DNA of 64,000 bases from Escherichia phage JLBYU43. Below are positions 7,401 through 56,012 of the stretch, in pieces. The notes beneath the pieces are model-generated. The model did not search any database. It had not been told where the DNA came from and saw nothing but the letters and a program-made list of their open reading frames with translations. The DNA is taken from sequence record NC_105512.1; one strand, written 5' to 3'. Position numbers and translations under genes: made by a program. Within the stretch, counting starts at the first letter, position 1. Every line of letters begins with the position of its first letter.

Positions 7401-7745
7401 ATGGTTATTTATGAGGGCAATCGTTTTGTTGCTAACTGCCGCCCGGCATTGTTAGCAAACTATTTGAACCAGCTTTCGCCAGCTTATAAGGGCGTTATTA
7501 ATATTTATGAGGGCAAGGCGCATTATAAAATTAATGCGGTCGTTGCCCGTGAACTAGCGTTTCAATTTTTAACCTTTGCAGCTTGCGACGTTCAGGTTAT
7601 GGGTGAGGCATTAATCGCAGAAAATGAAGATGATTTTATTAATATTTTTCGCAAGATATGCACCGAGCGCCTGATAATGAAAGGCGCATATATTCAATCC
7701 ACGGCTGATAGTATTGAAACAGCGTTTCGAAAAATAGGTAAATAA
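7401..7745 (+). CDS. hypothetical protein
   Basis: 114 aa, GGGAGG RBS. Confidence 0.5.
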   Translation: MVIYEGNRFVANCRPALLANYLNQLSPAYKGVINIYEGKAHYKINAVVARELAFQFLTFAACDVQVMGEALIAENEDDFINIFRKICTERLIMKGAYIQSTADSIETAFRKIGK

Positions 7746-8018
7746 TATGGCTGTTTATATTGCTTTGCTAGGATATGCGCTATCCCTTATTGCTGGTATG
7801 GTTACTTATAACATGATCGGCAATATTGTGTTACCCCTTGTTGTCTGCACTATCTTAGGTCAGTTTTGCGGAATGTTCGTTATGTATAAATTAATGCAAG
7901 GAAAATAATACTAATGAAACTATATATTTTCGTTGGTAATGCTGAGGCAGCTAATGATTCCGCTGGTGGCGGTAACGTTCGCCACTATTGGCAAAAATAT
8001 ATTTACTAGGGCGTTATT

Positions 8019-8222
8019 ATGAGCAATAAAATTGTTGTAACCAAAACTACTACGATGGTAGACGTTTTCTACGTGCCCGATACGCCGGAAAACCGACAAG
8101 CGGTTGAGCGTGGGGAGTATGATAAAGTGATTTATGATCACGATGGTTATTATCAGTATTTAGTGGATTCATATGGGGAGGAGGAAAAAATCACGCATCG
8201 ACTACCAGAGGAGGATTTATGA
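8019..8222 (+). CDS. hypothetical acidic protein
   Basis: 67-aa ORF. Confidence 0.45.
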   Translation: MSNKIVVTKTTTMVDVFYVPDTPENRQAVERGEYDKVIYDHDGYYQYLVDSYGEEEKITHRLPEEDL

Positions 8223-11436: not shown

Positions 11437-12047
11437 TAATTAAAACCCTTACTATTAGTCAGATCAACAAGAGCTTCCATAACTGCATCAGCAAAGCTCT
11501 CATTCCTGCTAGATGGTGTGCTCAGATGAATAGTATATGAGTTCCTAGAAACTCCAGCATCCGCTGGTGCTACGCTTCGCATATCAGATTCAAGAGCTTC
11601 TTGAGTATGTTTCAGTTGTACGGAAGGACTGCAATCTTCCCCAAACTTATATGACTGCGTACTACTTACCACACCCCCACAAGGAACATTGTGCATATCC
11701 GACATTAATCTTTTATCAGAATTAGTTAGTGCAGTAATATGCCAAGGGTCATTACGAGGAATAGTTGTAGTACTCGGGCGGTTCACTTCAGTCTTCACGA
11801 GTTTGTATCCTGCATCGATCAGTGCATTAATCAGATTATCCGCCGGGATGCGAGCTGTGCCAAAGATATTACGAGCATTCATGAGCTTAGCCTGAAACTC
11901 TTTGCAAGCCTGAAGATCAGTGTGCAAAAACGACAGTTGCATAGATTTAAACTGTACTGTAGCAGTCAGATCTTTAAAGCTATAATCCCATGTGTCGAGT
12001 TCGTGGTCTGGTACTACTTGAATAGATTGTTGTGTATTAAAAGTCAT
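11436..12047 (-). CDS. hypothetical protein
   Basis: 203-aa ORF, start overlaps the downstream gene. Confidence 0.55.
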   Translation of the reverse strand: MTFNTQQSIQVVPDHELDTWDYSFKDLTATVQFKSMQLSFLHTDLQACKEFQAKLMNARNIFGTARIPADNLINALIDAGYKLVKTEVNRPSTTTIPRNDPWHITALTNSDKRLMSDMHNVPCGGVVSSTQSYKFGEDCSPSVQLKHTQEALESDMRSVAPADAGVSRNSYTIHLSTPSSRNESFADAVMEALVDLTNSKGFN

Positions 12048-12232
12048 TATTTATTCTCCAGTTTGTCTAACAGTTTATGAGCTGCGATATTATATTGTTT
12101 AAGTTCACGATTAAGGATTTGGTTCTCACACTTTAGCTCTAGATTCTTGTTGTTAAGAATATTGCAGATTAGTAGAAGTGCTAGTATTAGTAACAGAGAA
12201 CCTACGAGCATTAAAAGAAAAAGAGTTTCCAT
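12047..12232 (-). CDS. small membrane protein
   Basis: 61 aa with an N-terminal hydrophobic helix. Confidence 0.4.
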   Translation of the reverse strand: METLFLLMLVGSLLLILALLLICNILNNKNLELKCENQILNRELKQYNIAAHKLLDKLENK

Positions 12233-12672
12233 TATTTTATCTCCATTCTTAACTTTGAAAACTTATTATACCAAACTATATGATTATCGTCAATTACAAA
12301 CTTATGATAACATGCTGGTACGGTATAAGTTCCATAATCCGTGACACGCTGCACAACCTTGTGTGCACACAGTCGACAACCATGCCCTTCTAAATGAGAT
12401 CTAGCAGTTTGCCAGTAATACCCTTCATGATCTGGACAGTAGATCTCGACTTGCTGTTGCATTGTTTTGTAATTTACACGCTCATACCCAAAGAAAGCTC
12501 CATGAACTGCAACAGCTTTCTTGATAAATATAAGGTTTAGTGCTTCTTGTTGAAAGTCGGGATGTAGCTGTTTAATCTTAGTTCTATTAATAGATCCATC
12601 CGATTTGATAAACCTATTTATTGGGAAGTTGTTAGCTTCCTCGATTAGTAATTCATTTATTTTATCACGCAT
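12232..12672 (-). CDS. Cys/His-rich hypothetical protein
   Basis: 146 aa with a CPDH...HGCRLCAH cluster. Confidence 0.5.
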   Translation of the reverse strand: MRDKINELLIEEANNFPINRFIKSDGSINRTKIKQLHPDFQQEALNLIFIKKAVAVHGAFFGYERVNYKTMQQQVEIYCPDHEGYYWQTARSHLEGHGCRLCAHKVVQRVTDYGTYTVPACYHKFVIDDNHIVWYNKFSKLRMEIK

Positions 12673-12673
12673 G

Positions 12674-12892
12674 TTACTTATTAAATAACTTATTTAGTTT
12701 ACAGTATAAGTCTTTTGCTTGTTCTTCGGATAGCCAAATAATATTGGGGGATGTTCCTCCACCTTTTTGAGCTAATCGTACTGTTTTATTTTTGCTTATT
12801 TCACAGGTTACAGCAGATTGATCTTCCGTAGGGCTATATCTAGCCTTTAGGTAGTTATCTAATGTTTTCATACTAAGTTCCTTGAAACACAA
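12674..12892 (-). CDS. hypothetical protein
   Basis: 72-aa ORF. Confidence 0.45.
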   Translation of the reverse strand: MCFKELSMKTLDNYLKARYSPTEDQSAVTCEISKNKTVRLAQKGGGTSPNIIWLSEEQAKDLYCKLNKLFNK

Positions 12893-12918
12893 AAGGCCAG
12901 AACAATTAAGTCCTGGCC
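12885..12918 (-). terminator. rho-independent terminator
   Basis: GGCCAG/CTGGCC stem followed by a U-tract on the minus strand. Confidence 0.5.
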
Positions 12919-12925
12919 TCTAGAA

Positions 12926-13297
12926 TTAATGAAGTTGTTTACCACTTCTTAAAATAGTGGCCGTTTCCATAAGATTTAGTGTTGTATCACGCTTTTTGAT
13001 TTGTTTGTCGAGTTCATCGGTACGTTTGCCAATGTAAGCGTTAATAGCCATATTCATAGCTGAGGCGAGATCTTCTTTGGTTATCTCTTCATCATCTAAA
13101 GCTAATTTAGCCAAAGAATCGAAAGTACTAGAAAGTCCTATAAGATCTGAGGTTTCACTAGCCAAAATAGGATTTATATTATCTATTGTTACTTCTAGCA
13201 TAGAGTTAACAATATCTTCTCCGTCTACCAGACCAGATTCAATATTACTCTCCCATTCCCTCATCTGCTCCAGCAATGGATTTTTCTTTTCTGTCAT
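12926..13297 (-). CDS. hypothetical acidic protein
   Basis: start moved to the internal ATG at 13297 with an AGGAAA RBS. Confidence 0.45.
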   Translation of the reverse strand: MTEKKNPLLEQMREWESNIESGLVDGEDIVNSMLEVTIDNINPILASETSDLIGLSSTFDSLAKLALDDEEITKEDLASAMNMAINAYIGKRTDELDKQIKKRDTTLNLMETATILRSGKQLH

Positions 13298-13706
13298 GGT
13301 AAAGGTTTCCTGTGTCAGTGGGTAAGAAGGACGATTGAGCTTTAGGTGGATGTTGTTTAGCAATCCAGTTAAGAATCAGCACACGACTAGGAACAATATC
13401 GGTGTTGTACCAGAAATCATGAACCCATTGACGAGCATCCTCAAACTTACCAAATTTATACGCTTTCTTAAATAATTCAAACCCAAAACAATCTGGTGTG
13501 AAGTCTACTTCACGATACTGAATTACTTTAGAACCAGTTAGATCTTGGATCGCTGCATTAATTTCTGTATGCGAGAATTTTGTTTCGTGAAACTTATTAA
13601 AGAATCGGTAGTTGAAGCGTCCGTTCGTTTCGACAAACAACTGGATGAAGAGATCGTTAAATTGGTTATCAAACCAGTAATTCTGTAGTTGTTGTAGTGC
13701 TGTCAT
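13245..13706 (-). CDS. hypothetical protein
   Basis: 153-aa ORF. Confidence 0.5.
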   Translation of the reverse strand: MTALQQLQNYWFDNQFNDLFIQLFVETNGRFNYRFFNKFHETKFSHTEINAAIQDLTGSKVIQYREVDFTPDCFGFELFKKAYKFGKFEDARQWVHDFWYNTDIVPSRVLILNWIAKQHPPKAQSSFLPTDTGNLYHDRKEKSIAGADEGMGE

Positions 13707-31924: not shown

Positions 31925-32002
31925 TGGTGGATTGCCTGGGATTCGAACCCAGAACTGACGGATTAAAGGTCCGCTACTCTTATCCAGTTGAGCTAGCAAT
32001 CC
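31925..32002 (-). tRNA. tRNA-Lys (UUU)
   Basis: perfect acceptor GGATTGC/GCAATCC, loop CCTTTAA (C at position 33), CCA encoded. Confidence 0.5.
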
Positions 32003-32466
32003 AATTTTTCTACTAATAATTTAAAAGCATCTAGTACAGGTACTTCAAACCATTCTCCAGATACTATATAATCTTTAAGAAGATTATGTAATTCTTTCTC
32101 TGTACGTCTTTTATCCGACGAAAATCTGAAATGGTATAGCTTGTAGTCTCTATTAGGTGAATAAGTTTGATAACTTGCTAACCTCTCATTCACATCTATA
32201 GTCATACCTATTTTATACATGCCTGGCCATGCTGGATTACCAATTACATATACAAAACCTTCCGTTATAGGTATTTTATGCTCCCTTTTATACTTTAAGA
32301 GATTTAAGGCTGCCATTCGATAACAGAATCTAAACTCTGAAGTTTTTAACTTACCTTCTTTACCTGAAATTTCGTTATATTTGCTCATATAAGCTCTTAT
32401 GAGCTTATCATCTATAATGAAGTTATCAGGAAGGTTTAAGGCAGATAAAACTTTATTAATTAGCAT
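31993..32466 (-). CDS. T5orf172-domain protein (GIY-YIG-like)
   Basis: motif VYVIGNPAWPGMYKIGMT...ERL...YQTYSP. Confidence 0.55.
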   Translation of the reverse strand: MLINKVLSALNLPDNFIIDDKLIRAYMSKYNEISGKEGKLKTSEFRFCYRMAALNLLKYKREHKIPITEGFVYVIGNPAWPGMYKIGMTIDVNERLASYQTYSPNRDYKLYHFRFSSDKRRTEKELHNLLKDYIVSGEWFEVPVLDAFKLLVEKLDC

Positions 32467-50277: not shown

Positions 50278-50419
50278 TTGGCTTTCCTTTTTATAGTTAT
50301 CAGGATTTAAGGAATATTCTACTTTATTATCGGTCATTAGGCAAATAAAATTTTCTGATAGAAAAGGCCCGAGTATTTTCATACCCAGGCCCTGTGTATT
50401 ACCAGTCTAGCTTTTTAGC

Positions 50420-50641
50420 TTATTCAATTACTTTAGCTCTAGCTACTTCTTTTAATAGAATATCTATGGAGGTGCTCAGCTCGTTATAATTGAATGGTTT
50501 ATTTGGATTTGAGGTTACAATTTTCCACGCTAGGGTTGTCTTAGGACTTTCTTCCCCTTCCTTACGTGTAATAATATTAGCAGCACTCAGTGAAGTACGA
50601 TGTATTTTAGTTTTACGGCTCAGATGAACGACGTTTCCCAT
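50420..50641 (-). CDS. hypothetical protein
   Basis: start set to the internal ATG with a GGGGAAGGTG RBS just after the phoH stop. Confidence 0.4.
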   Translation of the reverse strand: MGNVVHLSRKTKIHRTSLSAANIITRKEGEESPKTTLAWKIVTSNPNKPFNYNELSTSIDILLKEVARAKVIE

Positions 50642-50642
50642 A

Positions 50643-51404
50643 TTACACCTTCCCCATGTCTTTAAAAATACCATAGAATGCTTTAGACTCAACAGAACGA
50701 ACGTTATCAATCAATTCGATCATTGAGAATGGGGCATTTTCATATTTCTCATAGACTTCCATAAGGAGTGCTAGACCTGAGTCACCTTTAATGTCTTTCT
50801 GAGCTATATCTCCGCAGATAATTAAACGGCAGTCTTGTCCTACACGAGTTAGGAGACAAATCATTGCCTCAACGGAAATATTCTGAGCTTCATCGACAAT
50901 TACATAGGAGTTGTTGAAAGTTCTGCCACGAGCATGTTCGATAGCCAAAAATTTAATTTTCTGACGTTCGACATATCCCTTATATGCATGATCTCCGATG
51001 GCCCATTTCATACCATCAGCTATTGGCTCCAACCAAGGCTCTAGCTTTTCCGCTAGATCACCAGGAAGCATACCAAGAGACTTACCTAGAGGTTCATTAG
51101 GACGTACGAGGATCACTTGCTCAATATCTGAGTGAATGTCTACGAGTTCCTGAGCTGCAAGAACGGACGGAATAAAGGTTTTACCAGTACCTGGCTCACC
51201 GATACCCACAGTCACTGTGTTGTTCTTGATCATATTGATATATGATTTTTGCTCGCGGTTTTTACCTACTAGGGATTTAGCAACTGGGTTAGCGTAATCA
51301 TTAGAAAAATCAGCCTGAATTACGTTATTCTCATATTTGTTGCCACGCTTTCTTGAACCATTGCGGTTCTCTCTTTTTTGACGTGCTTTTCCCATAAATA
51401 ACAC
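50643..51404 (-). CDS. phoH: PhoH-like ATPase
   Basis: Walker A GEPGTGKT, PhoH-like architecture. Confidence 0.8.
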   Translation of the reverse strand: MLFMGKARQKRENRNGSRKRGNKYENNVIQADFSNDYANPVAKSLVGKNREQKSYINMIKNNTVTVGIGEPGTGKTFIPSVLAAQELVDIHSDIEQVILVRPNEPLGKSLGMLPGDLAEKLEPWLEPIADGMKWAIGDHAYKGYVERQKIKFLAIEHARGRTFNNSYVIVDEAQNISVEAMICLLTRVGQDCRLIICGDIAQKDIKGDSGLALLMEVYEKYENAPFSMIELIDNVRSVESKAFYGIFKDMGKV

Positions 51405-51694
51405 TCCTATAGTGTACTTCGCTTCTAACAGAGGATCAACAAAAAGATCTTGTTTATCAACTTACAAATATATTATACCAATATATGTGGGAGAAAGCAA
51501 CTACAATTTTAAATAAGCATATGATATTGCATTTAAATAAAAAATTTGCTTGCTTATAGAGGCAGAAATATGATACTAGATAATCATTTATTTATACGCA
51601 AAATATTACAGTATTAGATGACGAAAGAAAATTTTAATTGACATAGTGGATAATGTTTAGTATAATAGGTGTAAAAATTCTGTGGAGAAGGGGA

Positions 51695-52558
51695 ATGCCG
51701 AAAAAATTAACTCAAGAAGAAGTAGATAAATGCCTAGCCGAACGTGGTTTTACTATGGTGGATAAGCCTTACCAAAATTCTAGGTATAGGCATACGTATC
51801 AGTGTGAATATGGTCATCAATGGACATCTAAATTTGATGCTATTAGGAATGGAAAGACCAATTGTCCTACTTGTTCTATTAATAGCCGTAAACTAGATAT
51901 CGATAAAATTAATACTGTATTACAGGGTAGGGGTATTACATTGTTGGAGGGCTATAAAAATAGTGCCGATATAAATACTAAATTTAGGTGTGTTTGTGGT
52001 CATGAGTGGGCTACTACACTTAATAGTATAATTAATAGAGGTAGTGGCTGCCCCTCTTGTGCTATTAATAAACAAAAACTTAGTATTAATACTATAAACG
52101 ATCGTCTTACTGCTAGGAATATTAGAATAGTAGGTGAATATAGTAATGCGAATATTAAGACCACCTTTCTCTGTGGTGCAGGGCATCAGTGGGAAGCTAC
52201 TCCAGGATCCGTGTTAGGAGGAAATGGTTGTCCTTACTGTAAGTATAGGGATTTAGAAAATACTAAGGTATATATTATGCATAGCCCTTCACATGGTGTT
52301 AAAATAGGAAGGTCTAACAATCCAGAGCGCAGACTTTTACATATTAAATCTAGTAGTCACCTTACTGATCTGGAAGTAATTAAAGTATTTGAAATTGGAG
52401 AATATAGTGATGCTGTTCAAATCGAAAAATTAGCTCATAATTACTTTAAAGAACAGAATTGCCAATACAAAGATTTTGATGGTGCTACGGAATTCTTCAA
52501 TATTGAGCCAGAAGTAGCTATAAAATTTATCGAGGAAATAATCAATGACAGAAAATGA
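51695..52558 (+). CDS. T5orf172-domain protein with three zinc-ribbon repeats
   Basis: three ~47-aa repeats CxxGHxW...GxGCPxC followed by a T5orf172/GIY-YIG-like C-terminus; start at ATG 51695 with a GGAGAAGGGG RBS. Confidence 0.55.
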   Translation: MPKKLTQEEVDKCLAERGFTMVDKPYQNSRYRHTYQCEYGHQWTSKFDAIRNGKTNCPTCSINSRKLDIDKINTVLQGRGITLLEGYKNSADINTKFRCVCGHEWATTLNSIINRGSGCPSCAINKQKLSINTINDRLTARNIRIVGEYSNANIKTTFLCGAGHQWEATPGSVLGGNGCPYCKYRDLENTKVYIMHSPSHGVKIGRSNNPERRLLHIKSSSHLTDLEVIKVFEIGEYSDAVQIEKLAHNYFKEQNCQYKDFDGATEFFNIEPEVAIKFIEEIINDRK

Positions 52559-54371
52559 ACTAATTGAAAATTGCAAAGGTTTACTTACTCTAACTGCTGA
52601 CAAAGACTTGCAGCATAATAATGCTAATAAACCTAGCGAGATGTTTCATACACAGAGGGACTTACTAGCTGGAGAAATCAACAAGTATTTAGTAGCACAA
52701 GAATTACCTAAACATTTATTAGACGCCCATAATCTAGGTAAAATACACATCCATGATATGGATTATAGAGCACAGGGGTACACTAACTGTTGTTTAGTAG
52801 ACCTAGGTGGTATGTTGAAAAATGGTACTAAAATTGGTAATGCGAATATTGAAACTCCTAAATCTATAACTACTGCATGTGCGATTACTGCTCAGATTAT
52901 TGCTCAGGTATCAGGCGCTCAGTATGGGGGTACTTCTATTGATCGTATTGATGAAGTTCTAGCTCCGTATGTTAGGAAGTCCTACAATAAACATCTGGGG
53001 CGTGGCCTACGTTGGCTTAAGGATGAGAGAAAAGCTGCTGTATATGCTACTGAACTTACTGAAAAAGAATGTTATGATGCATTCCAAGCTCTAGAGTATG
53101 AAACTAATTCATTATTTAACTCTAATGGGCAGACTCCTTTTATTACGCTGGGCTTTGGATTAGGGCAGGAGTGGGAGGAAAGGATGATTCAGAAAGCCAT
53201 CCTCCAAAATCGTATTAAAGGTTTAGGTGCTGCTGAGTCAACTCCTATCTTCCCTAAACTAGTATTCTCAGTTAAAGAAGGGTTAAATAAAAATCCAGGT
53301 GATCCTAACTATGATATAAAACAACTAGCACTTGAGTGTTCTGCTACTCGTATGTACCCAGACTATTTAAGTTACGAGAAAGTTGTAGCTGTTACTGGTG
53401 ATTTTAAAGCCCCTATGGGTTGTCGTAGTTTTTTATCTGCCATCCCCTCTGGAGAAATTGCAGGACGTAATAATTTAGGTGTTGTGTCTATCAATCTACC
53501 TATGGTTGCTGCTGAGGCAGATGGAGTTTTTGAAGATTTCTGGGATATTCTAGACAAATATGTGGATGAGGCTTTTGAAGCACATGACTTCTTCTTAAAC
53601 AGACTGAAGAAAGTTAAGGCTAAACAAGCCCCTATTCTTTATATGCACGGTGGTTTTGGTGTACGTTTAGAAGGAGAAGAATATGTATGGCCTATTTTTG
53701 AGGGTAGATCTTCTGTATCTCTTGGGTATATTGGGGTCTATGAGATGTGCCAAATAATGTTTAGTTTACCACAGACTCATAGGGACTGTATTGAATTTAC
53801 AGAGGAAGTTCTCACTCACCTAAAAAATCGTTGCGAAGTTAAAGCTACTGAAACTAATCTTGGGTTTAGCTTGTATGCTACTCCTAGTGAGTCTCTGTGT
53901 AATCGCTTTAATAAACTACTGGAGCGTAGATTCCCAGAGTATTCTTGGTTAGCAGATAAAGGTTATCTTACTAATAGCCATCATTTGGACGTGAGGGAGA
54001 AGGTAGCTCCAGATACTAAATTTGAGTATGAGGCTCATTTTACTAAAATAGCTAATGGTGGTAATATATCATTTGTGGAACTACCTCAAATGAAAAAGTT
54101 CCACAAAGCTCTTGAGTATGTGGTGGATAAGGGGCTAGAATGTAGTCATTATATTGGTGTTAATATACCAATTGATGAGTGCTTCAATTGTGGGTATATG
54201 GGTGAATCTATTGCTTCTGAGCGTGGGTTTGTATGTCCAAGTTGTGGGTCTGAAGAAATAGAGGTTACACGTAGGGTTTGCGGGTACCTGGGATCCCCTG
54301 GCAGTAGGCCTTTCAATTCTGGGAAACAAAAAGAAGTTCTTGGTAGAGTAAAACACTTAAATTTCAAGTAA
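52545..54371 (+). CDS. nrdD: anaerobic ribonucleoside-triphosphate reductase (class III)
   Basis: 608 aa; C-terminal zinc ribbon CxxC...CPxCG and glycyl-radical motif RRVCGYLGS. Confidence 0.85.
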   Translation: MTENELIENCKGLLTLTADKDLQHNNANKPSEMFHTQRDLLAGEINKYLVAQELPKHLLDAHNLGKIHIHDMDYRAQGYTNCCLVDLGGMLKNGTKIGNANIETPKSITTACAITAQIIAQVSGAQYGGTSIDRIDEVLAPYVRKSYNKHLGRGLRWLKDERKAAVYATELTEKECYDAFQALEYETNSLFNSNGQTPFITLGFGLGQEWEERMIQKAILQNRIKGLGAAESTPIFPKLVFSVKEGLNKNPGDPNYDIKQLALECSATRMYPDYLSYEKVVAVTGDFKAPMGCRSFLSAIPSGEIAGRNNLGVVSINLPMVAAEADGVFEDFWDILDKYVDEAFEAHDFFLNRLKKVKAKQAPILYMHGGFGVRLEGEEYVWPIFEGRSSVSLGYIGVYEMCQIMFSLPQTHRDCIEFTEEVLTHLKNRCEVKATETNLGFSLYATPSESLCNRFNKLLERRFPEYSWLADKGYLTNSHHLDVREKVAPDTKFEYEAHFTKIANGGNISFVELPQMKKFHKALEYVVDKGLECSHYIGVNIPIDECFNCGYMGESIASERGFVCPSCGSEEIEVTRRVCGYLGSPGSRPFNSGKQKEVLGRVKHLNFK

Positions 54372-54378
54372 GCTAATC

Positions 54379-54411
54379 AGCCAGGTTGCTAGTCGACCTG
54401 GCTTTTATTTT
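54379..54411 (+). terminator. rho-independent terminator after nrdD
   Basis: AGCCAGGT/ACCTGGCT stem followed by TTTATTTTATTT. Confidence 0.65.
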
Positions 54412-54412
54412 A

Positions 54413-54441
54413 TTTGCTTTCAGCTAAAAATTTATGTATAA
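54413..54441 (+). promoter_or_regulatory. sigma70 early promoter (TTGCTT-17-TATAAT)
   Basis: consensus -10, near-consensus -35, 17-bp spacer, conserved leader into RBS. Confidence 0.65.
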
Positions 54442-54469
54442 TAGATTTATAAATTTAAGAGGAGGGTAT

Positions 54470-54829
54470 ATGAAATTAAAACCATTTATTGTTGTATCTA
54501 AACTAGGGCATTATCACGTAGGAGTAGATACAATTCAGGAAGCTATTTTTGCTGCTACAGGTGATTACTCATTACTAGAAGGTATTGGGTATCCTACACT
54601 ACTAGGCGACTTCGTAGAGCAAGAACTAGATATTACTGTCTATAATCCTATATATGAAGAACCTGAATACTTAAAAGAGACTCTAGAATTTGTATATTGG
54701 AACCACTTACAAGTATTTAATGTTACCTCTAATGGCACAGAGGATTTCTCTTCTGTTATTAAATGCCATATTAAACAAGTTTACTACGATTATTTCTACG
54801 AGGATATTGGAGCGGAGCTAAAAGTATGA
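54470..54829 (+). CDS. hypothetical protein
   Basis: start at ATG 54470 with a GAGGAGGG RBS directly behind the promoter. Confidence 0.5.
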   Translation: MKLKPFIVVSKLGHYHVGVDTIQEAIFAATGDYSLLEGIGYPTLLGDFVEQELDITVYNPIYEEPEYLKETLEFVYWNHLQVFNVTSNGTEDFSSVIKCHIKQVYYDYFYEDIGAELKV

Positions 54830-55029: not shown

Positions 55030-55243
55030 AAATGTTAGTCTTATTGACCTGAGTAAACTCAATGTAGAGTTTCAGGGGGTTTTAATGAAGCACTGGGAAA
55101 CTGGCTATAAGGATGGTGTTGAATCCTGTGCTACTATGCTAGAATTTATTGCTAATACCTTAGTGGAGAAAGGCAATAAAGAATTAGCTGAGCTGTTAGA
55201 CAGTATTGGGCAAAACTTCAGAGAGCAGGTGAAAAATGCGTAG
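54998..55243 (+). CDS. hypothetical protein
   Basis: 81-aa ORF. Confidence 0.45.
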   Translation: MAFSSQKLPSENVSLIDLSKLNVEFQGVLMKHWETGYKDGVESCATMLEFIANTLVEKGNKELAELLDSIGQNFREQVKNA

Positions 55244-56012
55244 ACTAATCATTGTTAGTGGTGCTGGTTTAAGTGTTGATAGTGGTATCCGTGCATTCCG
55301 TACAGATACTGCTAGTGGTAAAGCAATGTGGGACGAGTACGATCTAGAAGAGGTGTGTGATATTCATGCTTTTCGTGGCCAGTTCTACTGGAAAACCCAC
55401 GAGTTCTACAACAAGCGTCGTCAGGAGTTGCGGACTGTTGAACCTAACATTGCGCACCTTCGTATTGGGGAATGGTTCCAGCGGTATCCAGAAGCGGTAC
55501 TAAACATTACTACTAACGTAGATGACTTGCTGGAAAGAGCTGGTGTGCCGAAAAGTGAGGTTCTCCACGTTCATGGCTATTTACCGGAAGTTCGTATTAA
55601 GGAATTGCCAGACCGAAAAGAGTACATCCTAGATGTGGGCTATACTGCTATTGATCCTGATGAATTTTATTGGGCAAAGCCTAACGTTGTATTCTTTGGT
55701 GAAGCAGCCCCCGAATATGCTCTGATGCATGCCACTTTTGATAGTCTTACAGCTAACGATATGGTTATCGTGGTTGGGTGTAGTAACCAAGTTATCAACT
55801 TCAACTGGGAACTTTTTCCTGCACTAGCTCGTGGTACTAAGATGATGGTTGTTAACCCAACTATTAACTACTTGGAACAATCCCTGTACGAAGAGCGTGG
55901 TGTTACTGTATGGCGTGCTGGGGCTGCCGAAGTTTTCGGTAACAAACACTTTATTGGCCAGGTAGAAGCTTTTATGGAAGGAACTATTTATGCCCCAGAA
56001 AAGCATGTGTGA
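55236..56012 (+). CDS. SIR2-family (sirtuin-like) NAD-binding protein
   Basis: sirtuin motifs GAGLSVDSGIRAFR, VVFFGE and VVGCS; no CxxC zinc-ribbon insert visible. Confidence 0.65.
   Translation: MRRLIIVSGAGLSVDSGIRAFRTDTASGKAMWDEYDLEEVCDIHAFRGQFYWKTHEFYNKRRQELRTVEPNIAHLRIGEWFQRYPEAVLNITTNVDDLLERAGVPKSEVLHVHGYLPEVRIKELPDRKEYILDVGYTAIDPDEFYWAKPNVVFFGEAAPEYALMHATFDSLTANDMVIVVGCSNQVINFNWELFPALARGTKMMVVNPTINYLEQSLYEERGVTVWRAGAAEVFGNKHFIGQVEAFMEGTIYAPEKHV

What the first reader, a model, noticed from the sequence alone, without database searches (positions are those of the whole stretch)
51695..52558. T5orf172-domain protein with three tandem zinc-ribbon repeats, abutting nrdD
Three ~47-aa repeats (CxxGHxW...GxGCPxC) precede a GIY-YIG-like T5orf172 core, and the gene overlaps the start of nrdD. 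The arrangement suggests a free-standing homing endonuclease targeting the nrd region. A second T5orf172 protein (31993-32466) sits inside the tRNA island.
Basis: partly seen in the sequence, partly recalled or inferred. Interest (0 to 1): 0.45.

Follow-up and report, generated by a model that had tools for sequence, protein, structure and literature searches.

The report
Homing-type nuclease gene upstream of nrdD
This is a selfish "homing endonuclease" gene of a type already described in T5-like phages, lodged between the promoter and the start of the anaerobic ribonucleotide reductase gene; it is real and well supported but ordinary for this phage group.

Summary
The ORF at 51695-52558 (+) is real. 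It encodes 287 aa: three tandem DUF4379/CapR-type zinc-finger modules, with a period of 61-62 aa rather than about 47, followed by a C-terminal T5orf172 (GIY-YIG superfamily) nuclease domain. It overlaps the nrdD start by 14 nt and shares nrdD's promoter and terminator.

The window is a T5-like phage (Demerecviridae). About 440 related phage records carry the phoH flank, and 25 of them hold this gene, always at this site. Others hold a frameshifted deletion relic (8), a degenerate 3' relic (6), two different two-finger paralogues (21 and 7), an HNH-AP2 nuclease gene, or nothing (T5).

The evidence that the gene is functional and mobile, now or recently:
- dN/dS is 0.09-0.14.
- Y193, R213 and E266 are invariant across the family.
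- The gene and the first ~500 nt of nrdD form a mosaic block.
- A 99%-identical paralogue sits in front of two nrdD alleles that are only ~62% identical.

Barth, Dunham and Seed (2023) already described this class, and RefSeq and GenBank already label the gene as an endonuclease or homing endonuclease. Cleavage and the target site remain untested.

The parts
51638..51666 (+). Consensus sigma-70 promoter (TTGACA-17-TATAAT, 12/12) driving the HEG-nrdD unit
   Evidence: the only 12/12 match in 51350-54600. It is also conserved in HEG-less relic alleles (Gostya9, HildyBeyeler), so it is the nrdD promoter, and the HEG lies downstream of it.
51684..51693 (+). Ribosome-binding site of the HEG (GGAGAAGGGG)
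   Evidence: Sequence read. It ends 1 nt before the ATG at 51695. The alternative upstream ATG at 51653 lies inside the promoter spacer, so it is unlikely to be transcribed.
51695..52558 (+). Free-standing T5orf172-type homing endonuclease gene (287 aa)
   Evidence: dN/dS is 0.09-0.14 against nine orthologues. The AF2 model has pLDDT 85.3.
51695..51886 (+). Zinc-finger DNA-binding module 1 (aa 1-64; C37, H41, C57, C60)
   Evidence: This module is absent from the two-finger paralogues, which align from residue ~65.
51887..52069 (+). Zinc-finger module 2 (aa 65-125; C99, H103, C119, C122)
   Evidence: C119 and C122 are invariant and C99 nearly invariant in the family alignment.
52070..52252 (+). 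Zinc-finger module 3 (aa 126-186; C160, H164, C179, C182)
   Evidence: C179, P180 and C182 are invariant.
52259..52555 (+). T5orf172 / GIY-YIG-fold nuclease domain (aa 189-287)
52378..52544 (+). 3' end of the HEG that survives in HEG-less alleles; it contains the nrdD ribosome-binding site (GAGGA at 52532-52536)
   Evidence: The last 167 nt are retained at 91% identity in 8 deletion-relic records. A degenerate version is retained in Gostya9, DT57C and DT571/2. The stretch TTTATnGAGGAAA...ATG is invariant in all alleles aligned.
52545..52558 (+). 14-nt overlap of the HEG stop with the nrdD start (translational coupling inferred)
   Evidence: The same overlap (14 or 8 nt) is found in orthologues of 59-63% identity.
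52545..54371 (+). nrdD, anaerobic ribonucleoside-triphosphate reductase (class II allele of T5-like phages)
   Evidence: PF13597, 2e-157. It is only 61-62% aa identical to T5 nrdD. 48 database records carry this class.
53028..53138 (+). Recurrent recombination breakpoint zone inside nrdD (nt 484-594), the right edge of the block that travels with the HEG
   Evidence: Maximum chi-square breakpoints in seven independent pairwise comparisons, chi2 up to 99.
54379..54403 (+). Intrinsic terminator ending the HEG-nrdD transcription unit
   Evidence: 10-bp stem with 6 GC pairs and a T tract. No + strand terminator lies between the HEG and nrdD.
50643..51404 (-). phoH, the divergently transcribed left neighbour (conserved left flank of the polymorphic gap)
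   Evidence: PF02562, 7e-61. It is 99-100% aa identical across T5-like phages whatever occupies the gap.

Best explanation
The gene encodes a sequence-specific DNA endonuclease of the T5orf172 branch of the GIY-YIG superfamily. It behaves as a free-standing homing endonuclease gene (HEG) parked between the nrdD promoter and nrdD.

Proposed mechanism:
1. The gene is transcribed with nrdD from the shared consensus promoter (shown by anatomy).
2. It is translated from its own ribosome-binding site, and its stop overlaps the nrdD start.
3. The three zinc-finger modules, arranged as beads on a string, read a long asymmetric DNA site (inferred from CapR).
4. The C-terminal nuclease domain cuts nearby (inferred from Odn and I-TevI).
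5. In a mixed infection with a related phage whose phoH-nrdD region lacks the gene, the break is repaired from the HEG-bearing genome. This copies in the HEG plus flanking DNA, about 200 nt to the left and about 500 nt of nrdD to the right (inferred from the mosaic block).

The 3' end of the gene now supplies the ribosome-binding site and start region of nrdD. When the gene decays, that end is therefore kept (shown by the relic alleles).
For: Domains and fold:
- Pfam and PHROG hits.
- Y193, R213 and E266 are invariant in 24 family members.

Precedent:
- The T5orf172 protein Odn cleaves DNA in vitro, and mutation of the conserved Glu kills it (PMC8263062).
- The CapR zinc finger binds DNA, and Cys-to-Ser mutants do not (PMC8096241).
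- T5orf172 HEGs with repeated zinc fingers are enriched in T5-like phages, and 33% of their neighbourhoods hold ribonucleotide reductase genes (PMC10448857).

Population evidence:
- 25 of ~440 records carry the gene, all at this site, in two genera.
- Eight records hold a frameshifted internal-deletion relic and six a degenerate relic.
- T5 has an empty site with no trace of the gene.
- Rival occupants are two two-finger paralogues and an HNH_3+AP2 gene.

Selection: dN/dS is 0.09-0.14.

Mosaicism:
- Against SP01 and HZ_ZJUN2, the HEG plus nrdD nt 1-600 are 96-100% identical, then identity falls to 87-91%.
- Against EH1 and S124 the pattern is the reverse.
- Breakpoints recur at nrdD nt 484-594.

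Mobility at this site: the NR01-type paralogue is 99.1% identical in NR01 and rutana, but it fronts nrdD alleles of different classes (~62% aa identical between classes). Divergence starts at the nrdD ATG.

Operon anatomy: one promoter and one terminator.
Against: - No biochemical data exist for this protein or any close orthologue, and the target site is unknown.
- Every one of the 48 records with the window's nrdD class carries a T5orf172 gene or its relic. No never-invaded cognate allele was seen, so invasion by this three-finger gene has not been caught directly.
- HEG-bearing haplotype B and the relic alleles have the same nrdD 5' sequence. No protective substitution pattern marks a target.
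- Orthologues of 59-63% identity sit at the same place in distant relatives whose PhoH and NrdD are equally diverged. That fits long vertical residence, and so possibly a host-useful role.
- The recurrent nrdD breakpoint could be an ordinary recombination junction between two nrdD haplotypes.
- The second tyrosine of the canonical GIY-YIG motif is a lysine (K203), as in other T5orf172 domains.
Confidence: 0.7

Rival explanations
1. Domesticated protein. The gene is kept because it helps the phage. It might act as a DNA-binding autoregulator of the phoH/nrdD control region, as I-TevI represses its own promoter. Or it might be a weapon that cuts the nrdD region of competing T5-like phages, without itself spreading any more.
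For: - It has kept the same position for a long time: orthologues of 59-63% identity lie at phoH|nrdD in distant contigs, with a conserved overlap of the nrdD start.
- Purifying selection is strong (dN/dS about 0.1).
- It sits directly behind the nrdD promoter.
- There are precedents for co-option of this family: CapR as a repressor (PMC8096241) and Odn as an anti-satellite nuclease (PMC8263062).
- Barth et al. state that homing cannot be inferred from sequence alone (PMC10448857, Discussion).
Against: - The gene is dispensable. It has been lost at least twice by deletion, and in at least one lineage a paralogue occupies its place, in otherwise near-identical phages.
- T5 and about 360 other records do without it.
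- The catalytic residues are conserved, which a pure repressor would not need.
- Interference competition through cutting a rival's locus is mechanistically the same act as homing.
Confidence: 0.2
2. Inactive passenger. The ORF is intact but the protein no longer cuts DNA. It persists only because its 3' end carries the nrdD translation start and deletions are rare.
For: - Relic alleles show that only the last 110-170 nt are needed for nrdD.
- Many phage HEGs are defunct, for example T4 I-TevIII (PMC2988022).
Against: - dN/dS of 0.07-0.35 in every one of the four domains, including the nuclease domain (0.07-0.13), is not neutral decay.
- All ten copies with intact starts are full-length, without stops.
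- The active-site residues are invariant.
Confidence: 0.06
3. Anti-satellite or anti-defence nuclease in the manner of ICP1 Odn. The zinc fingers would recognise a foreign element (a satellite, plasmid or host locus) rather than a phage allele.
For: - The nuclease family is the same as Odn's (PMC8263062).
- There are weak PADLOC hits to the candidate system PDC-S57 on the nuclease domain only (E 8e-7).
Against: - The DNA-binding part is the generic CapR/DUF4379 array of the HEG class, not a borrowed replication-initiator domain as in Odn.
- The locus shows the turnover typical of HEGs (relics, rival HEGs of other families in the same gap).
- No satellite is known for T5-like phages (my knowledge, not tested).
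Confidence: 0.04

Closest known systems
T5orf172-family homing endonuclease genes with repeated CapR/DUF723/DUF4379 zinc fingers (Barth, Dunham & Seed 2023, PMC10448857)
   Same: - Same architecture: an N-terminal array of zinc-finger modules and a C-terminal T5orf172 domain.
- Same phage group: that paper names T5-like phages as enriched.
- Same kind of site: 33% of neighbourhoods hold ribonucleotide reductase genes.
- Same evolutionary behaviour: repeats, domain swapping, and position at boundaries of genetic exchange.
   Different: Nothing essential; this gene is a member. That paper does not dissect the phoH|nrdD gap, the relic alleles, or the use of the gene's 3' end as the nrdD translation start.
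Odn (Gp88) of vibriophage ICP1
   Same: A C-terminal T5orf172 nuclease domain with the conserved Arg and Glu. Odn is the only member of the family in the papers found here with published in vitro cleavage; E180A is inactive (PMC8263062).
   Different: - Odn's DNA-binding part is a RepA_N domain taken from the PLE satellite, not zinc fingers.
- It targets a satellite replication origin and is a defence tool, not a homing element.
CapR of the V. cholerae PLE satellite
   Same: A homologous zinc-finger DNA-binding module (Pfam PF21817 hit, E 3e-10). DNA binding depends on the four metal ligands (PMC8096241).
   Different: - CapR has a single module, no nuclease domain, and a CxxC...CxC ligand pattern. 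Here the pattern is C-x3-H...C-P-x-C.
- CapR is a transcriptional repressor.
I-TevI / I-TevII and the Seg endonucleases of phage T4 (GIY-YIG)
   Same: - Beads-on-a-string DNA recognition.
- Free-standing Seg genes ride on host transcripts.
- I-TevII targets nrdD, and nrd genes are HEG hot spots in T-even phages (PMC2988022).
   Different: - Domain order is reversed: in Tev and Seg the nuclease is N-terminal.
- Their DNA-binding modules are of a different type (helix-turn-helix, minor-groove helices).
- I-TevII is intron-encoded, whereas nrdD here has no intron (no Rfam hit).
- The second motif Tyr is Lys here.
mobE of T4 (HNH) between nrdA and nrdB
   Same: A free-standing nuclease gene wedged between ribonucleotide reductase genes that mobilises flanking DNA (PMC2790892).
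   Different: A different nuclease superfamily (HNH) and a different nrd gene pair.

Membership tests
T5orf172 / GIY-YIG nuclease superfamily | Match to the family profile above the curated threshold | tested here: met
   PF10544 scores 46.5 bits (cut-off 20) and PF13455 47.3 bits (cut-off 22.3), residues 192-282.
T5orf172 / GIY-YIG nuclease superfamily | GIY-YIG alpha/beta fold (three-stranded sheet flanked by helices) | tested here: met
   [not shown]
T5orf172 / GIY-YIG nuclease superfamily | Conserved catalytic Tyr (strand 1), Arg (helix 1) and metal-binding Glu | tested here: met
   Y193, R213 and E266 are invariant in 24 aligned family members. Their equivalence to I-TevI Y6/R27/E75 and to Odn E180 is inferred from order and secondary structure, not from a superposition. 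The second motif Tyr is Lys (K203), as is typical of T5orf172.
T5orf172 / GIY-YIG nuclease superfamily | Endonuclease activity | not testable with these tools
   This needs an in vitro cleavage assay with an E266A control.
CapR / DUF4379 treble-clef zinc-finger DNA-binding module | Profile match above threshold, present as repeats | tested here: met
   [not shown]
CapR / DUF4379 treble-clef zinc-finger DNA-binding module | Four metal ligands per module | tested here: inconclusive
   Each module has C-x3-H...C-P-x-C. The CPxC pair is invariant. The first Cys is present in all three modules here. In the family alignment it is nearly invariant for modules 2 and 3, while module 1 is missing from the two-finger members. 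The His is not conserved in all family members, so the fourth ligand is uncertain. CapR itself has CxxC...CxC (PMC8096241).
Free-standing homing endonuclease gene (functional class) | Sporadic presence or absence at one locus among close relatives | tested here: met
   25 of ~440 records, in two genera.
Free-standing homing endonuclease gene (functional class) | Signs of the invasion-decay cycle (relics, replacement by other HEGs) | tested here: met
   A frameshifted deletion relic in 8 records and a degenerate relic in 6. Two two-finger paralogues and an HNH_3+AP2 gene occupy the same gap in other phages.
Free-standing homing endonuclease gene (functional class) | Co-conversion of flanking DNA / lateral transfer between backgrounds | tested here: inconclusive
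   For this gene there is a mosaic block (about 51480 to 53030-53140) with recurrent breakpoints. That is compatible with co-conversion but not proof of it. For the NR01-type paralogue at the same site, transfer between nrdD classes is clear.
Free-standing homing endonuclease gene (functional class) | A cognate HEG-less allele that carries a cleavable target | tested here: inconclusive
   A naive empty site exists only with the other nrdD class (T5). All 48 records of the window's nrdD class carry a T5orf172 gene or relic.
Free-standing homing endonuclease gene (functional class) | Super-Mendelian inheritance in mixed infection | not testable with these tools
   This needs phage crosses.
Hef-like endonucleases (phage U5 Hef) | Sequence or domain similarity to a Hef-like protein | tested here: not met
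   The top BFVD hit is labelled 'Hef-like'. However, LIMEstone1 F-LimIII, listed as Hef-like in PMC3296691, has DUF7487 + REase_MTES_1575 and no BLASTP similarity to this protein. U5 Hef itself could not be obtained.
Known anti-phage defence systems (PADLOC) | Match to a system's protein models | tested here: not met
   Only weak domain-level hits to the candidate PDC-S57 (E 8e-7) on the nuclease domain.

The most novel reading that the evidence does not exclude
The phoH|nrdD gap of T5-like phages may be a long-lived arena in which nuclease cassettes replace one another. The resident T5orf172 gene may have become entrenched: its last ~110-170 nt were taken over as the ribosome-binding site and start region of nrdD. 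Under this reading, nrdD of the invaded lineages lost its own first ~9 codons, and the nuclease gene can decay but never be cleanly removed. The cassettes also mark the boundary between two nrdD allele classes only ~62% identical, inside otherwise 99%-identical phages. That would mean a homing element has driven the exchange of a whole metabolic gene between phage lineages.
Probability: 0.4. Interest if true: 0.4.

Novelty: already known. Interest (0 to 1): 0.2.

Why it matters
Little changes for annotation: the gene should be called a putative T5orf172-family homing endonuclease, as several records already do.

The locus is nonetheless a convenient natural experiment. Intact, frameshifted, degenerate, replaced and empty alleles all exist in cultured phages. 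Both SelmaRatti (intact) and HildyBeyeler (relic) were isolated on E. coli K-12. No T5orf172 nuclease has been shown to home in the papers I found, and this locus would allow a direct test.

It also explains why nrdD phylogenies of T5-like phages disagree with the rest of the genome. And it shows how a selfish gene can become fixed in part by supplying its neighbour's translation signals.

Tried and rejected
1. Paralogues in the window. tblastn of the protein against the window found only itself. The second T5orf172 gene is too diverged for BLAST and has no zinc fingers.
2. Solved structures by sequence. A profile search of PDB sequences gave nothing significant.
3. Single-sequence AF2 gave a poor nuclease domain (pLDDT 30-40). 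It was replaced by an alignment-based model.
5. The Hef lead was rejected.
6. Intron or RNA element in or near nrdD: no Rfam match.
7. DNA repeats that might be a tripartite binding site in the window or in the T5 empty site: only short, chance-level matches.
8. Target-site immunity substitutions in nrdD. HEG-bearing haplotype B and the HEG-less relic alleles share the same 5' nrdD sequence, so no diagnostic pattern emerged.
9. Defence-system membership: no PADLOC system. NCBIfam has no model.
10. My first count of Gostya9-type relics (19) was wrong. It included short partial matches, and the correct count is 6 records (re-read).

Full report
**What is there.** The window is a T5-like phage (Demerecviridae, Markadamsvirinae). 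Over 50400-54400 its closest record is Salmonella phage 2-3, at 97.6% identity. The ORF at 51695-52558 (+) is intact, is preceded by GGAGAAGGGG, and encodes 287 aa. Pfam finds three DUF4379 'treble clef zinc finger' stretches (E 2.2e-14) that also match the CapR homology domain (3.1e-10). A C-terminal T5orf172/MUG113 domain covers residues 192-282 (5.5e-12 and 3.2e-12). PHROG 681 'endonuclease' scores 1.8e-65.

The motif CxxGHxW...CPxC starts at residues 37, 99 and 160 and occurs nowhere else in the six-frame translation of the window. The repeat unit is 61-62 aa, not about 47. It consists of a helix-strand leader plus a 23-24 aa zinc knuckle, and the units are 27-31% identical to each other.

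The stop codon lies 14 nt inside nrdD, whose ATG is at 52545 (PF13597, E 2e-157). It is 157 aa with no zinc fingers, and it lies among 23 tRNA genes.

**Anatomy of the transcription unit.** The only perfect sigma-70 consensus in the region (TTGACA-17-TATAAT, 51638-51666) lies just upstream of the gene. The only strong + strand terminator follows nrdD at 54379-54403. The same promoter precedes nrdD in relatives that lack the gene. The nuclease gene is therefore an insertion between the nrdD promoter and nrdD, co-transcribed with it. The 301-aa start used in some records (ATG 51653) lies inside the promoter spacer and is probably wrong.

Across 24 family members the invariant residues of the nuclease domain are Y193, K203, G205, R213, E244, H248 and F261-D262-G263..E266. 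I assign Y193, R213 and E266 to the GIY-YIG Tyr, Arg and metal-binding Glu by order and secondary structure; this is an inference. The predicted-structure library of viral proteins holds 289 matches at E <= 0.001 with the same architecture, so the design is common in phages.

**What the literature already says.**
- Barth, Dunham and Seed (PMC10448857) describe this class. T5orf172 HEGs are enriched in T5-like phages. Of their neighbourhoods, 33% contain ribonucleotide reductase genes. Of the genes, 87% carry CapR/DUF723/DUF4379-type zinc fingers, often repeated 'beads on a string'.
- Odn of phage ICP1 is a T5orf172 protein. It cuts DNA in vitro and is inactivated by mutating the conserved Glu (PMC8263062).
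- The CapR zinc finger binds DNA in a Cys-dependent way (PMC8096241).
- In T4, nrdD is itself the home of the GIY-YIG enzyme I-TevII, and nrd genes are HEG hot spots (PMC2988022).
- RefSeq and GenBank already name the orthologues 'endonuclease', 'homing endonuclease', 'putative homing endonuclease' or 'GIY-YIG nuclease family protein'.

Among 50,697 phage records, 439-443 share the phoH flank. Occupancy of the gap is as follows:
- The intact three-finger gene is in 25 records, at 91-99.8% identity, always between phoH and nrdD. These include Tequintavirus (SelmaRatti, SHSML-45, SP01) and Epseptimavirus (2-3, RN29, EH1).
- Eight records (HildyBeyeler, Kenya-K36/42/44, phA11, phC11/17) keep only ATGCCGAAAA joined to the last 167 nt. 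This is an internal deletion at an AATTAA microhomology. It is frameshifted, with a stop after 18 codons.
- Six records (Gostya9, DT57C, DT571/2) keep only a degenerate ~110-130 nt 3' remnant (blastn E 1e-15; tblastn fragments for residues 245-264 and 274-287).
- Twenty-one records carry a two-finger paralogue of the NR01 type (44-45% aa identity). Seven carry another of the NBEco002/AKFV33 type (49-52%).
- SE24 carries an HNH_3+AP2 nuclease gene in the opposite orientation.
- T5 itself has an empty gap with no trace of the gene and its own nrdD ribosome-binding site.

**Two nrdD classes.** The nrdD next to the gene (class II; 48 records) is only 61-62% aa identical to T5 nrdD (class I, the majority). 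The adjacent PhoH is 99-100% identical in all of them. The 48 class II records are accounted for as 25 intact, 8 + 6 relic and about 9 NR01-type. I therefore found no never-invaded class II allele.

**Evidence for function and mobility.**
- dN/dS of the gene against nine orthologues is 0.09-0.14. It is below 0.35 in each of the four domains. For nrdD it is about 0.02.
- Identity profiles are mosaic. Against SP01 and HZ_ZJUN2, the gene and nrdD nt 1-600 are 96-100% identical, and the rest of nrdD is 87-91%. Against EH1 and S124 the gene and nrdD 5' end are 88-92%, and nrdD nt 601-1200 is 97.5-98%. Against 2-3 everything from the intergenic region onward is 99-100%, but phoH is 91%.
- Maximum chi-square breakpoints fall at nrdD nt 484-594 in seven comparisons (chi2 up to 99). 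On the left they fall at 51337-51487. A block of about 1.6 kb (intergenic region, HEG, first ~500 nt of nrdD) therefore moves as a unit. That is what co-conversion around a homing site would produce, although ordinary recombination between two haplotypes is not excluded.
- Direct evidence of cassette transfer exists for the paralogue. The NR01-type gene is 99.1% identical in NR01 and rutana. NR01 has class II nrdD. Rutana has a class I nrdD that is 100% identical to SE24's over most of its length (75-98% in the first 800 nt). The two sequences part company exactly at the nrdD ATG.
- NBEco002 compared with T5 shows a cassette of promoter + HEG + the first ~75 nt of nrdD replacing T5 sequence. 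Homology resumes at the conserved NNANKPS codons.

**Entrenchment.** In all invaded alleles, nrdD starts about 9 codons downstream of the T5 start. It uses a GAGGA box that lies inside the last codons of the nuclease gene (52532-52536). That stretch is invariant in intact, relic and paralogue alleles. This explains why decay always spares the 3' end. The functional step (that nrdD translation depends on it) is inferred.

**Age.** Orthologues of 63% and 59% identity (P0002, P0003) sit at the same phoH|HEG|nrdD position in metagenomic contigs, with 14- or 8-nt overlaps. PhoH in those contigs is 65-66% and NrdD 60-66% identical to the window's. The association is therefore old. That is compatible with persistence by recurrent homing, but also with a host-useful role.

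**Verdict.** The interpretation as a free-standing homing endonuclease acting at the nrdD 5' region is supported by comparative evidence and is the best explanation (0.7). The main rival is domestication (0.2). Cleavage, target site and biased inheritance are untested. The kind is already described and the gene already annotated, so novelty and interest are low. The locus would, however, make a good system for testing whether a T5orf172 nuclease homes.

Noticed in passing
window 31993-32466 (-): The second T5orf172/MUG113 gene (157 aa, no zinc fingers) overlaps tRNA-Lys (31925-32002) by 10 nt inside the tRNA island. It is sporadic too: 386 records share the flanking tRNAs, and only 81 cover at least 80% of the stretch.
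   Followed up: partly
window 52545-54371 (+) versus L015 (T5) 11962-13686: T5-like phages carry two nrdD allele classes only 61-62% aa (about 66% nt) identical. The neighbouring PhoH is 99-100% identical. The boundary lies in the phoH-nrdD gap where the nuclease genes sit.
   Followed up: partly
L016 (Salmonella phage SE24) 3885-4376 (-): An intact 163-aa HNH_3 + AP2 nuclease ORF occupies the same phoH-nrdD gap in the opposite orientation. RefSeq annotates only a 144-nt piece as 'HNH endonuclease'.
   Followed up: partly
L011 (phage 2-3) 2395-2880; L015 (T5) 7537-8061; L017 (SelmaRatti) nrdA; L023 nrdA: The whole nrd cluster is crowded with mobile elements:
- Phage 2-3 has an HNH_3 gene between nrdA and the small DUF7430 gene, which is absent from the window.
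- T5 has hegH between nrdA and nrdB.
- SelmaRatti has an intein in nrdA, and a metagenomic relative has a LAGLIDADG hit in nrdA.
   Followed up: no
window ~50420-50640 (-), small ORF next to phoH: RefSeq names the orthologues of this 70-80 aa DUF7430 protein 'tail length tape measure protein'. Given its size and its place among nucleotide-metabolism genes, that looks like a propagated annotation error.
   Followed up: no
window 51653 (alternative ATG) and 51638-51666 (promoter): Some records (SelmaRatti, cluster P0001) start the nuclease gene 42 nt earlier, giving 301 aa. That ATG lies inside the spacer of the consensus promoter, so the 287-aa start at 51695 is more likely.
   Followed up: partly
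L009 (phage H8) 4001-4858: The H8 copy matches only from residue 2 (858 nt) and lacks the normal start context. This could be a start mutation or a sequencing error in an old record.
   Followed up: no
window 55236-56012 (+): A Sir2-family (NAD-dependent deacetylase) gene lies about 0.9 kb downstream of nrdD, after three small ORFs. Relatives carry one or two Sir2 genes with variable small ORFs between them.
   Followed up: no
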